NCBI RefSeq assembly: GCF_001677475.2
Contig: NZ_CP015229.1
Length of the DNA stretch: 64,000 nt
Direction: 5' to 3' (one strand)
DNA from: Escherichia coli
GTDB lineage: Bacteria > Pseudomonadota > Gammaproteobacteria > Enterobacterales > Enterobacteriaceae
Within the stretch, counting starts at the first letter, position 1. Every line of letters starts with the position of its first letter. Positions 11,601 through 14,600 of this stretch are shown one piece after another. Position numbers: made by a program.

Positions 11601-14600
11601 GGTGGATGGGCGCTGGCCGCCGGATTGCCGGGCATCATTATGCTGCTGGTCACCCCGCTGGTGATTTACACCATGTATCCGCCAGAAATTAAGAAGGTGG
11701 ATAATAAAACCATCGCCAAAGCGGGCCTTGCCGAACTGGGACCGATGAAAATCCGCGAAAAAATGCTGCTCGGTGTCTTTGTGCTGGCGCTGCTGGGCTG
11801 GATTTTCAGTAAGTCCCTGGGGGTTGATGAATCCACCGTGGCAATCGTTGTTATGGCGACCATGCTGCTGCTGGGTATCGTTACCTGGGAAGACGTGGTT
11901 AAAAATAAAGGCGGCTGGAATACCTTAATCTGGTACGGCGGTATTATCGGCTTAAGCTCCTTATTATCGAAAGTTAAATTCTTCGAATGGTTAGCTGAAG
12001 TCTTTAAAAATAACTTGGCATTTGATGGTCACGGTAACGTTGCTTTCTTCGTTATTATTTTCCTCAGCATCATCGTTCGTTATTTCTTCGCTTCCGGTAG
12101 TGCCTATATCGTTGCTATGTTACCGGTATTTGCCATGCTGGCGAACGTCTCCGGCGCACCGTTAATGTTAACCGCGCTGGCACTGTTGTTCTCCAACTCC
12201 TATGGCGGCATGGTTACTCACTATGGCGGCGCGGCAGGTCCGGTCATCTTTGGCGTGGGTTATAACGATATTAAATCCTGGTGGTTGGTCGGTGCGGTAC
12301 TGACGATATTAACCTTCCTGGTGCATATCACCCTTGGCGTGTGGTGGTGGAATATGCTGATCGGCTGGAACATGCTGTAAATATACTCGTCATACTTCAA
12401 GTTGCATGTGCTGCGTCTGCGTTCGCTCACCCCAGTCACTTACTTATGTAAGCTCCTGGGGATTCACTCGCTTGTCGCCTTCCTGCAACTCGAATTATTT
12501 AGAGTATATCCATTTATTATCTTTCTGCGCACTTCACGGTGCGCAGATATCTGGAGCATTTGATGATCAAGTTATCTGAAAAAGGCGTGTTTCTCGCCAG
12601 TAATAACGAAATAATTGCCGAAGAACATTTCACCGGCGAAATTAAAAAAGAAGAAGCAAAAAAAGGCACTATTGCCTGGTCTATTCTCTCTTCTCATAAT
12701 ACGTCCGGAAATATGGATAAACTTAAAATTAAGTTTGATTCATTAGCCTCTCACGATATTACCTTTGTTGGTATTGTACAGACCGCTAAAGCGTCCGGTA
12801 TGGAACGTTTCCCGCTGCCGTATGTGCTGACCAACTGCCATAACTCACTCTGCGCCGTCGGCGGCACCATTAACGGTGATGACCATGTTTTTGGTTTATC
12901 GGCGGCTCAGCGTTATGGCGGTATTTTTGTGCCTCCGCATATTGCGGTCATCCATCAATATATGCGTGAGATGATGGCAGGCGGCGGCAAAATGATCCTC
13001 GGGTCAGACAGCCACACCCGTTACGGTGCATTAGGGACAATGGCAGTCGGTGAGGGTGGCGGTGAGTTGGTAAAACAGCTGCTTAATGACACCTGGGATA
13101 TCGACTATCCGGGAGTTGTTGCGGTGCATTTGACCGGAAAACCTGCGCCGTATGTGGGGCCACAGGATGTGGCGCTGGCTATCATCGGTGCCGTGTTCAA
13201 AAACGGCTACGTCAAAAACAAAGTGATGGAATTCGTAGGTCCCGGTGTTGCTGCGCTCTCTACCGATTTCCGTAACAGCGTTGACGTTATGACCACTGAA
13301 ACGACCTGTTTAAGTTCTGTCTGGCAAACCGATGAAGAAGTCCATAACTGGCTGGCGCTGCACGGTCGCGGCCAGGATTACTGCCAGCTTAACCCTCAAC
13401 CGATGGCATACTACGATGGCTGCATCAGCGTTGATTTAAGCGCCATCAAACCAATGATTGCGCTGCCGTTCCACCCGAGCAACGTATATGAAATCGACAC
13501 GCTGAACCAGAACCTGACCGACATTCTGCGTGAGATTGAAATTGAGTCCGAACGCGTGGCGCACGGTAAAGCCAAACTCTCGCTGCTGGATAAAGTGGAA
13601 AATGGTCGCCTGAAAGTGCAGCAGGGGATTATCGCGGGCTGTTCTGGCGGTAACTACGAAAACGTCATCGCGGCGGCGAATGCACTGCGCGGTCAATCCT
13701 GTGGCAACGATACCTTCTCGCTGGCGGTTTACCCGTCATCACAGCCGGTGTTTATGGATTTAGCCAAAAAAGGCGTGGTAGCAGATTTGATTGGCGCAGG
13801 CGCAATCATCAGAACCGCGTTCTGCGGCCCATGCTTTGGCGCGGGCGATACGCCAATCAACAACGGTTTGAGTATTCGCCACACCACGCGTAACTTCCCG
13901 AACCGCGAAGGCTCTAAGCCAGCCAATGGGCAGATGTCAGCAGTGGCGTTGATGGACGCTCGTTCTATCGCTGCGACTGCGGCAAACGGTGGCTATTTAA
14001 CCTCTGCGAGCGAACTTGATTGCTGGGATAACGTGCCGGAGTACGCCTTCGATGTAACGCCGTATAAAAATCGTGTTTATCAGGGCTTTGTGAAAGGGGC
14101 GACCCAGCAACCGTTGATTTACGGACCGAACATTAAAGACTGGCCAGAATTGGGGGCGCTGACTGACAATATCGTCCTCAAAGTGTGCTCGAAGATCCTC
14201 GACGAAGTCACCACCACCGACGAACTGATTCCTTCCGGTGAAACCTCTTCTTATCGTTCAAATCCGATTGGTCTGGCGGAGTTTACCCTGTCACGCCGCG
14301 ATCCAGGTTATGTTGGCAGAAGTAAAGCGACTGCTGAGCTGGAAAATCAGCGTCTGGCGGGGAATGTCAGCGAGCTGACAGAGGTGTTTGCGCGCATTAA
14401 GCAGATTGCTGGTCAGGAGCATATTGATCCGCTGCAAACTGAAATTGGCAGCATGGTCTATGCGGTGAAACCAGGCGATGGTTCTGCGCGTGAGCAGGCG
14501 GCGAGCTGCCAGCGTGTGATTGGCGGTCTGGCGAATATTGCCGAGGAATACGCGACTAAACGCTACCGTTCTAACGTCATCAACTGGGGGATGTTACCGC

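What the first reader, a model, noticed from the sequence alone, without database searches (positions are those of the whole stretch)
12384..12510. ERIC element between ybhI and ybhJ
A full-length ERIC/IRU repeat occupies the ybhI-ybhJ spacer, so it sits inside a probable operon. ERIC elements form stable RNA hairpins and can affect mRNA stability or segmental expression, which could uncouple ybhJ expression from ybhHI.
Basis: partly seen in the sequence, partly recalled or inferred. Interest (0 to 1): 0.25.

Follow-up and report, generated by a model that had tools for sequence, protein, structure and literature searches.

The report
ERIC repeat between ybhI and ybhJ
A standard 127-bp ERIC mobile repeat sits one base after the ybhI stop codon in E. 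coli; it is real, already catalogued and nearly fixed in the species, and its effect on the downstream gene ybhJ is plausible but untested.

Summary

- **Identity:** Both ERIC-PCR primers match exactly. The copy is 118/127 identical to a consensus built here from independent copies. It is the published K-12 member eco:7_ERIC.
- **Insertion:** An empty-site allele in E. coli GF4-3 and a divergent Escherichia shows a 125-bp insertion with TA duplication, 1 nt after the ybhI stop codon.
- **Distribution:** The filled site is in 5331 of 5426 complete E. coli genomes. The empty junction is in one.
- **Operon context:** ybhH-ybhI-ybhJ looks like one transcription unit. The spacers are short, the junction has no promoter-like or terminator-like site, terminators follow ybhJ, and enterobacterial synteny is conserved.
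- **RNA structure:** The mRNA-sense strand folds into a -43 kcal/mol hairpin. Its AU-rich 3' arm carries an RNase E-like motif. This matches the architecture studied in Yersinia, where stop-codon-adjacent ERICs lower upstream transcript levels.
- **Not tested:** No transcript data for this junction could be reached, so the "uncoupling" idea remains untested.

Verdict: already known and ordinary, low interest. Side observations are a 127/127 match to E. albertii despite about 8% flank divergence, a conserved older hairpin before the ybhJ ribosome-binding site, and a palindrome-"corrected" allele in at least 586 E. coli records.

The parts
10947..12380 (+). ybhI (DASS-family anion permease), with stop codon TAA at 12378-12380
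   Evidence: ORF list. RefSeq annotation of identical loci.
12382..12508 (.). ERIC/IRU element: 127 nt including both TA, a net insertion of 125 bp. The conventional (Hulton) orientation of the core is on the - strand. The ybhI-ybhJ mRNA carries the complementary strand, 5'-UAUACUCGUCAUACUUCAAG...GAAUUAUUUAGAGUAUA-3'.
   Evidence: Exact primer matches. Family alignment and consensus, 118/127. Equals eco:7_ERIC. Full-length but sub-threshold Rfam V_AS5 hit on the - strand. Folds.
12382..12383 (.). Left copy of the duplicated TA target dinucleotide
   Evidence: The empty allele reads TAAA-TA-TCC. The filled allele reads TAAA-TA[TACTC...GAGTA]TA-TCC.
12507..12508 (.). Right copy of the duplicated TA target dinucleotide
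   Evidence: Same comparison.
12424..12467 (.). Conserved 44-bp central core inverted repeat, carrying the ERIC2 and ERIC1R primer sites
   Evidence: In alignment A1 the central 32 bp (12430-12461) are invariant by construction, because that stretch was the search pattern.
12485..12508 (+). 3' arm (right terminal inverted repeat) in mRNA sense. It is AU-rich and holds the arm's RN|WUU RNase E-like motif, GAAUU at 12492-12496.
   Evidence: Motif scan: sites at 12460, 12492 and 12556 on the + strand, none on the - strand. Pairing with the 5' arm 12382-12405.
12525..12548 (+). Older, non-ERIC 10-bp hairpin immediately 5' of the ybhJ Shine-Dalgarno sequence
   Evidence: Folds. Present in the empty-site alleles. 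Two compensatory pair changes in Citrobacter youngae.
12553..12565 (+). ybhJ Shine-Dalgarno (GGAG, 12553-12556) and ATG (12563-12565)
   Evidence: Sequence. The RefSeq ybhJ start corresponds to this ATG.
12563..14824 (+). ybhJ (aconitase-family hydratase, 753 aa)
14830..14886 (+). Terminator-like hairpins with T-runs after ybhJ, the likely end of the ybhHIJ transcription unit

Best explanation
**What it is.** This is an ordinary full-length ERIC/IRU miniature inverted-repeat element. It inserted into a TA dinucleotide 1 nt downstream of the ybhI stop codon, duplicating the TA and lengthening the ybhI-ybhJ spacer from 57 to 182 nt. This is shown.

**Distribution.** The filled allele is essentially fixed in E. 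coli and is also present in E. albertii. This is shown.

**Transcription.** The element is most likely transcribed as part of a ybhH-ybhI-ybhJ mRNA. This is inferred from spacer lengths, the absence of a promoter or terminator at the junction, and synteny.

**RNA structure.** In that mRNA it forms a long hairpin of about -43 kcal/mol that begins one nucleotide after the stop codon. This is a computed prediction.

**Most likely consequence.** This step is inferred by analogy with Yersinia ERICs, not tested here. A ribosome terminating at the ybhI stop transiently melts the 5' arm. That frees the AU-rich 3' arm (GA|AUU at 12492-12496) for RNase E. Cleavage exposes the ybhHI segment to 3'-exonucleases. 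The ybhJ segment would then begin with the older conserved 10-bp hairpin, which can protect its 5' end.

**Expected outcome.** A modest shift in the ybhHI:ybhJ mRNA ratio, with lower upstream transcript, and not a transcriptional disconnection of ybhJ.
For: **Identity**
- Exact primer sites.
- 118/127 identity to a consensus from independent canonical-length copies.
- Identity with the published eco:7_ERIC.
- Dispersed multicopy family, median 11 blastn places per E. coli genome.

**Insertion and TA duplication**
- Empty alleles in L082 and GF4-3.

**Fixation**
- Filled in 5331/5426 genomes, empty in 1.

**Operon context**
-.

**Hairpin and family covariation**
- Fold of -43.2 kcal/mol, z = -6.2.
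- 98% of cells paired. 11 pairs show double changes, against 2.8 +/- 1.1 in shuffles (0/500) and 1-2 in slid controls.

**Stop-codon adjacency and motif**
- The RN|WUU motif lies in the 3' arm on the mRNA strand only.

**Conserved downstream hairpin**
-.

**Precedent**
- Reviews PMC2229807, PMC3184786 and PMC10969869 summarise De Gregorio et al. 2005. ERICs next to stop codons in Y. enterocolitica lower upstream transcript levels through ribosome-dependent unmasking of an RNase E site in the 3' terminal repeat, and the effect depends on orientation.

**Parallel case**
- The near-identical cusC-cusF copy sits in the same orientation inside an operon.
Against: - No transcript-level data for this junction were obtainable.
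- The ybh genes are poorly expressed in standard media, so any effect may be physiologically negligible.
- The RN|WUU motif is expected about twice by chance in 127 nt (my arithmetic: 1/64 per position).
- The orientation bias next to stop codons across independent sites is not significant: 7 vs 3 within 10 nt, two-sided binomial p about 0.34.
- Within E. coli the element is about as polymorphic as its flanks, so strong purifying selection on its sequence is not evident.
- I could not read De Gregorio 2005. I therefore cannot confirm that this orientation is their 'B' (destabilising) one.
- The Yersinia results may not transfer to E. coli.
Confidence: 0.5

Rival explanations
1. Neutral passenger. 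This is the same ERIC insertion, co-transcribed or not, with no measurable effect on ybhHI or ybhJ expression. It reached fixation by drift or hitch-hiking, and the hairpin is simply the structure of a palindromic mobile element.
For: - The family is a selfish MITE with about 11-21 copies per genome (PMC2267715).
- E. coli GF4-3 carries the empty allele.
- Polymorphism inside the element is comparable to the flanks, including arm-disrupting changes such as K-12 A12385T, which weakens the fold from -43.2 to -38.5 kcal/mol.
- There is no significant orientation bias.
- Covariation of the arms is equally expected for terminal inverted repeats recognised by one transposase (caveat).
Against: - E. 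albertii is identical at 127/127 while the surrounding 320 nt differ at 25 positions, about 7.8%. P(0 differences) is about 3e-5 under equal rates, by my arithmetic.
- The position 1 nt from a stop codon matches the functional class described in Yersinia.
Confidence: 0.4
2. Transcriptional attenuator or terminator. The long hairpin followed by the U-rich stretch UCCAUUUAUUAUCUUU stops a fraction of RNA polymerases. On this reading ybhJ is transcriptionally uncoupled from ybhHI.
For: - A stable hairpin is followed by a moderately U-rich tract.
- PMC9068703 names ybhH and ybhI, but not ybhJ, as YbhD/Nac targets. This is weak evidence, because no ybhJ values are given.
Against: - The terminator scan finds nothing in the spacer.
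- The base of the stem is AU-rich, and the first 8 nt after it hold only 4 U.
- No alternative promoter for ybhJ lies in the spacer, so termination would silence a conserved gene.
- No 3' end is reported there in the Adams 2021 3'-end tables, although expression is low.
- A 126/127-identical ERIC in the same orientation lies inside cusCFBA, whose distal genes are expressed from the cusC promoter (plus background knowledge).
Confidence: 0.07
3. DNA-level role only. The element would act as a recombination or gene-conversion substrate, a cruciform, or a protein-binding site, with no RNA function.
For: - The subfamily is nearly identical across loci: eco:3, 4, 5, 7 and 13 are 120-126/127 identical to the window copy.
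- The element is identical in E. albertii, which is compatible with concerted evolution.
- The CTC->TGA palindrome-correcting change shows template switching at the DNA level.
Against: - No binding motif is known for ERIC (PMC2229807, Table 1).
- Nothing ties such a role to ybhI or ybhJ.
- DNA-level events do not exclude RNA effects.
Confidence: 0.03

Closest known systems
ERIC / IRU / RU-1 elements of Enterobacteriaceae (Sharples & Lloyd 1990; Hulton et al. 1991; Wilson & Sharp 2006)
   Same: 127 bp; conserved 44-bp core with both ERIC-PCR primer sites; long imperfect palindrome; terminal TA and TA duplication; intergenic; multicopy. This exact copy is eco:7_ERIC in PMC2267715 Additional file 1.
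   Different: Nothing essential. The window strain differs from K-12 by one base (12385 A vs T).
cusC-cusF ERIC of E. coli (eco:5_ERIC)
   Same: 126/127 identical. Same orientation relative to the flanking co-directional genes. Starts 6 nt after the upstream stop codon and lies inside an operon.
   Different: Different locus. Only 24 nt separate the element from the cusF start, and there is no additional conserved hairpin between them.
Stop-codon-adjacent ERICs of Yersinia enterocolitica (De Gregorio et al. 2005), which act as RNase E-dependent mRNA destabilisers
   Same: The element abuts the upstream stop codon and would be co-transcribed with both neighbours. The hairpin's 5' arm lies within the footprint of a terminating ribosome. 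The 3' arm is AU-rich.
   Different: Different species and ERIC subfamily. No expression measurements exist for this locus. I could not verify that this orientation equals their 'B' orientation.
Correia/NEMIS elements of Neisseria
   Same: A MITE co-transcribed within operons, whose RNA hairpin is a ribonuclease substrate that changes the stability of flanking mRNA.
   Different: An unrelated sequence. It is cleaved by RNase III at the paired terminal repeats, and some copies carry promoters or IHF sites.
REP/BIME intercistronic elements (for example malE-malF)
   Same: Intercistronic repeats that form hairpins and cause segmental differences in mRNA stability within an operon.
   Different: REPs are about 35-40 nt GC-rich stem-loops that protect upstream mRNA from 3'-exonucleases. 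They have a different sequence family, origin (RAYT-associated) and predicted direction of effect.
Rfam RF02818 V_AS5 (Vibrio RNA AS5)
   Same: Full-length alignment (model positions 1-129) on the - strand, E = 2e-8. The model evidently captures Vibrio ERIC-like repeats.
   Different: The score of 46.9 bits is below the gathering threshold of 96. The Vibrio copies are diverged and reported to have eroded terminal repeats (PMC2267715).

Membership tests
ERIC/IRU | Length of about 127 bp | tested here: met
   12382-12508 is 127 nt. The net insertion is 125 bp relative to the empty allele (182 vs 57 nt spacer).
ERIC/IRU | Conserved central core inverted repeat (ERIC1R and ERIC2 primer sequences) | tested here: met
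   Both 22-mers match with 0 mismatches, once each, with 0 expected by chance.
ERIC/IRU | End-to-end similarity to independent family members or the consensus | tested here: met
   118/127 to a consensus of independent canonical-length copies. 80-126/127 to the 19 published K-12 members.
ERIC/IRU | Imperfect palindrome, with terminal inverted repeats folding into one long stem-loop | tested here: met
   MFE of -43.2 kcal/mol, z = -6.2. Consensus structure with 11 covarying pairs, 0/500 shuffles as high.
ERIC/IRU | Insertion at TA with TA target-site duplication | tested here: met
   Empty alleles L082 and L203 read TAAATATCC. The filled allele reads TAAATA[TACTC..GAGTA]TATCC.
ERIC/IRU | Dispersed, multicopy, intergenic | tested here: met
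   Median of 11 blastn places per E. coli genome. 35 distinct flanking contexts among the metagenome hits. This copy lies between two annotated CDS.
ERIC/IRU | Located in a transcribed region | not testable with these tools
   No RNA data for this junction could be retrieved. Co-transcription is inferred from context only.
Regulatory (stop-codon-adjacent) ERIC in the sense of De Gregorio 2005 | Element abuts or overlaps the stop codon of the upstream co-directional gene | tested here: met
   The ybhI TAA ends at 12380 and the element starts at 12382.
Regulatory (stop-codon-adjacent) ERIC in the sense of De Gregorio 2005 | Orientation that places the RNase E site in the 3' terminal repeat of the mRNA | tested here: inconclusive
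   An RN|WUU motif (GAAUU, 12492-12496) lies in the 3' arm on the + strand and none on the - strand. The motif is near chance frequency, and the paper's A/B definition could not be read.
Regulatory (stop-codon-adjacent) ERIC in the sense of De Gregorio 2005 | Lower level of upstream than downstream transcript, dependent on translation and RNase E | not testable with these tools
   This needs Northern, qRT-PCR or RNA-seq in wild type versus element-deleted or rne-ts strains.
Rfam RF02818 V_AS5 | Score at or above the gathering threshold (96 bits) | tested here: not met
   46.9 bits, E = 2.1e-8, full model length. It is homologous but not a member by Rfam's cut-off.
Intrinsic (Rho-independent) terminator | GC-rich stem immediately followed by a T-run | tested here: not met
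   No terminator-like site lies between 12381 and 12562 on either strand.
Promoter-bearing MITE (outward promoter for the downstream gene) | Sigma-70-like -35/-10 pair within or just after the element, facing ybhJ | tested here: not met
   The only + strand promoter-like site in 9500-15200 is at 12672-12700, inside ybhJ.

The most novel reading that the evidence does not exclude
The element is a domesticated intercistronic regulator, not a passive passenger. On this reading, the filled allele swept to near fixation in E. coli because the hairpin and RNase E site set the ybhHI:ybhJ mRNA ratio. It is held, or was transferred, identical between E. coli and E. albertii: a 172-nt tract (12363-12534) has no differences in a background that is about 8% divergent. 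Meanwhile the ancestral empty allele persists in a divergent Escherichia lineage and in one E. coli genome.
Probability: 0.15. Interest if true: 0.4.

Novelty: already known. Interest (0 to 1): 0.12.

Why it matters
This finding matters little on its own. ERIC elements have been known since 1990-91, and this copy is already in a published K-12 catalogue. Its practical value is as a clean natural test case. A filled allele and a precise empty allele both exist in E. coli, beside a stop codon and inside a probable operon. That pairing would let the Yersinia ribosome/RNase E model of ERIC action be tested in E. coli with a single allelic swap. If the element does shift the ybhHI:ybhJ ratio, it would bear on how the still-uncharacterised YbhH/YbhI/YbhJ pathway (tautomerase-like enzyme, DASS transporter, aconitase-family hydratase) is balanced.

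Tried and rejected
- **Primary papers.** Hulton 1991, Sharples & Lloyd 1990, Wilson & Sharp 2006 and De Gregorio 2005 are not held. I relied on reviews and on a consensus I derived myself.
- **Transcript evidence.**
  - Conway 2014 has no held supplements.
  - SMRT-Cappable-seq has no ybh entries.
  - Adams 2021 lists only an antisense 3' end inside ybhJ.
  - The ybhD-mutant paper's held supplements contain no expression table.
  - Two papers that mention ybhJ turned out to be irrelevant: one describes an antisense sRNA in the CDS, the other only strain genotypes.
- **Orientation bias.** The bias next to stop codons across 35 insertion sites was 7 vs 3, which is not significant. Gene calling was crude, using open frames of at least 100 codons.
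- **Polymorphism count.** A position-by-position count among metagenome haplotypes was corrupted downstream of the element by an indel in one haplotype, so I discarded the downstream count. I used direct comparisons of individual genomes instead.
- **Terminator and outward-promoter readings.** Both were rejected on the scan.
- **Rfam V_AS5 membership.** Rejected, because the score is below threshold.
- **Excision in the empty lineage.** I considered this unlikely. The empty alleles carry C at 12515 as Citrobacter does, whereas the filled alleles of E. coli and E. albertii share A12512/T12515. The data available cannot settle it.
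Full report
**1. What is at the coordinates**

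The window is E. coli. The region is annotated in RefSeq genomes as ybhD (-), ybhH, ybhI, ybhJ (+) and ybhC (-). In window coordinates:
- ybhH is 9819-10871.
- ybhI is 10947-12380, with stop TAA at 12378-12380.
- ybhJ starts at the ATG at 12563 (Shine-Dalgarno GGAG at 12553-12556) and ends at 14824.

The 182-nt ybhI-ybhJ spacer contains a 127-nt imperfect palindrome at 12382-12508.

**2. Is it an ERIC?**

Yes.
- The two standard ERIC-PCR primers match exactly and uniquely: ERIC1R at 12446-12467 (+) and ERIC2 at 12424-12445 (-). None is expected by chance, even at 3 mismatches. The primer sequences are from my background knowledge.
- I did not want to rely on a remembered consensus. I therefore scanned metagenome contigs with the 32-nt core and obtained 120 loci. 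These resolve into 35 distinct insertion sites, and 28 of the 36 aligned sequences (window included) are of canonical 126-128 nt length.
- The window copy aligns end to end with these copies. It is 118/127 identical to their consensus, and 124-126/127 identical to copies at several other sites.
- The other copies carry internal insertions of about 65-140 nt (elements of 192-264 nt).
- A 2008 catalogue of E. coli K-12 stem-loop families gives 19 ERIC members as FASTA (PMC2267715, Additional file 1). eco:7_ERIC equals the reverse complement of window 12358-12508, which is the element plus 24 nt of ybhI. The single mismatch is the K-12 polymorphism at 12385. This specific copy is therefore already catalogued.
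- Rfam gives a full-length but sub-threshold hit to V_AS5, a Vibrio family that evidently captures Vibrio ERIC-like repeats (46.9 bits against a gathering score of 96).
- blastn finds a median of 11 ERIC-like places per E. coli genome and 13 in K-12 W3110. The literature gives 19-21 for K-12 (PMC2267715).

**3. Insertion anatomy**

Among loci encoding YbhJ relatives, L082 has an intact ybhI-ybhJ junction without the element. L082 is a strain labelled E. coli that is only about 92-93% identical to the window across ybhH-ybhJ. Citrobacter and Edwardsiella also lack the element.
- The empty allele reads ...CTGTAAATATCC... and the filled allele reads ...CTGTAAATA[TACTC...GAGTA]TATCC...
- This is a net gain of 125 bp with duplication of a TA, as described for ERICs (PMC2229807, Table 1).
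- The target TA lies 1 nt after the ybhI stop.
- The empty spacer is 57 nt.

**4. Population and species distribution**

- A 247-nt query spanning both junctions is covered at 80% or more in 5331 of 5426 complete E. coli genomes.
- A 52-nt empty-junction query cannot seed on either flank alone. It hits exactly one genome, GF4-3 from guinea fowl. Across ybhH-ybhJ, GF4-3 is otherwise an ordinary E. coli, at 94-100% identity per 250 nt.
- About 58 genomes lack the ybhJ 5' region altogether. BLR(DE3) appears to be one of these.
- E. albertii has the filled site, and its element is 127/127 identical to the window's. The surrounding 320 nt differ at 25 positions, about 7.8%. The identical tract is 12363-12534.
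- Under equal rates, the probability of no difference in 127 nt is about 3e-5 (my arithmetic).
- The filled alleles of E. coli and E. albertii share A12512/T12515. The empty alleles have C at both positions, and Citrobacter also has C at 12515. The empty allele therefore looks ancestral rather than an excision product.
- Within E. coli the element is not invariant. Changes occur at 12385, 12417, 12420 and 12470, plus a clustered change at 12453-12455.

The identity with E. albertii may reflect constraint, concerted evolution with the near-identical sister copies (eco:3, 4, 5 and 13 are 120-126/127 identical), or short-tract transfer. I cannot distinguish these.

**5. Structure**

- The mRNA-sense strand of the element folds into one long stem-loop of -43.2 kcal/mol, z = -6.2.
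- With the rest of the spacer, the fold is -62.8 kcal/mol on the + strand and -71.5 on the - strand.
- Across 27 independent copies, the RNAalifold structure has 31 pairs and 98% of cells paired.
- Eleven pairs show changes on both sides, against 2.8 +/- 1.1 in shuffles (0/500) and 1-2 when partners are slid.
- The core pairs are invariant by construction, because they were the search pattern.
- Arm covariation is also what a transposase acting on both terminal repeats would produce. It supports palindromic constraint, not specifically RNA function.

**6. Operon context**

- No sigma-70-like promoter and no terminator-like hairpin lies in the ybhI-ybhJ spacer. Terminator-like sites occur just after ybhJ, at 14830-14886.
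- The order ybhD/ybhH-ybhI-ybhJ is conserved in E. albertii, two Citrobacter and Edwardsiella, with ybhI-ybhJ spacers of about 55-75 nt where the ERIC is absent.
- This supports 'probable operon' by inference only. PMC9068703 treats ybhHI as the YbhD/Nac-regulated cluster and mentions ybhJ separately, without expression values.

**7. Likely mechanism**

Reviews of De Gregorio et al. 2005 state that Yersinia ERICs are co-transcribed with their neighbours. ERICs at the 3' ends of genes lower the upstream transcript because ribosomes prevent hairpin folding and unmask an RNase E site in the 3' terminal repeat. The effect depends on orientation (PMC2229807, PMC3184786, PMC10969869).

This copy has the required architecture:
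- It starts 1 nt after the stop codon, so a terminating ribosome would cover its 5' arm.
- In mRNA sense the 3' arm is AU-rich (CUCGAAUUAUUUAGAGUAUA) and contains an RN|WUU motif at 12492-12496. The opposite strand has none.
- Downstream lies a separate 10-bp hairpin (12525-12548), immediately 5' of the ybhJ Shine-Dalgarno. It predates the ERIC and is kept in Citrobacter youngae through two compensatory pair changes. It could protect the 5' end of a processed ybhJ segment.

I therefore favour a modest post-transcriptional effect, with lower ybhHI relative to ybhJ, over transcriptional uncoupling.

The cusC-cusF ERIC is a useful parallel. It is 126/127 identical, in the same orientation, 6 nt after the cusC stop, and inside an operon whose distal genes are expressed (plus background knowledge).

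Caveats:
- The motif is near chance frequency.
- The orientation bias among independent sites is not significant (7 vs 3).
- I could not confirm the A/B nomenclature.
- No RNA data exist for this junction in what I could reach.

A neutral-passenger reading is almost as likely.

**8. Verdict**

The feature is an already known member of a well-known family, and interest is low.

Noticed in passing
window 12525-12548 (+): A 10-bp hairpin (UCUGCGCACU-UCAC-GGUGCGCAGA) lies immediately 5' of the ybhJ Shine-Dalgarno. It is not part of the ERIC. It is present in the empty-site alleles, and Citrobacter youngae keeps it through two compensatory pair changes (CUGUGCUC/GAGCACAG). It may be an mRNA 5'-stabiliser, a processing structure or a palindromic operator.
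   Followed up: partly
window 10910-10932 (ybhH-ybhI spacer): A second intercistronic hairpin (CUUCUGUAUGA-GUC-AUACAGAAA) lies upstream of the ybhI ribosome-binding site. It is conserved in E. albertii and L082, and its core CUGUA..UACAG is conserved in C. youngae. It shares the UUCUG...CAGA ends with the ybhJ-proximal hairpin.
   Followed up: partly
window 12453-12455; L205 and L206 (E. coli 2/0, O145 RM9873-C1): Some E. coli carry a clustered CTC->TGA change that makes the ERIC core a perfect palindrome (fold -43 to -54 kcal/mol). This is the signature of quasipalindrome correction by template switching. At least 586 E. coli records carry the L205 haplotype. The change removes the ERIC1R primer match at this copy.
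   Followed up: partly
L003 (E. albertii) vs window 12363-12534: A 172-nt tract that includes the whole ERIC is identical between E. coli and E. albertii, although the flanks differ by about 8%. The filled alleles share two derived bases (12512, 12515) that the empty alleles lack. Constraint, concerted evolution and short-tract transfer are not resolved.
   Followed up: partly
L002 4003-4129 (E. coli BLR(DE3), cusC-cusF spacer): A near-identical ERIC (126/127; eco:5_ERIC) sits 6 nt after the cusC stop, in the same orientation relative to the cusCFBA genes. It is a second operon-internal, stop-codon-adjacent copy.
   Followed up: partly
window 12563-14821 (YbhJ); loci L008-L081: Close YbhJ orthologs occur in only a few Enterobacterales (E. 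albertii, Citrobacter, Edwardsiella, K. oxytoca). Most of the other 80 loci kept are Clostridia/Lachnospiraceae (with a few Megasphaera, Megamonas and Collinsella) at 66-74% amino-acid identity, and most lack YbhH or YbhI neighbours. This suggests cross-phylum horizontal transfer of ybhJ.
   Followed up: partly
window 11412-11663 (-): A sub-threshold Rfam hit to Yersinia sRNA Ysr283 (37.4 bits vs gathering 58, E = 4e-8) lies antisense inside ybhI. It probably reflects homology of the underlying coding sequence and not an sRNA gene.
   Followed up: no
L130 ~3622-3800; L147 ~5490-5662: ERIC copies lie directly adjacent to, or nested within, another ERIC copy in metagenome contigs. This suggests that ERIC ends (TA-rich) are themselves insertion targets.
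   Followed up: no
ybhJ coding region, - strand (MG1655 coordinate 805363; not mapped to window coordinates): The literature reports antisense transcription within ybhJ: an antisense 3' end in the Adams 2021 tables, and the candidate cis-antisense sRNA ECS012 (PMC3175480). Neither overlaps the ERIC.
   Followed up: no
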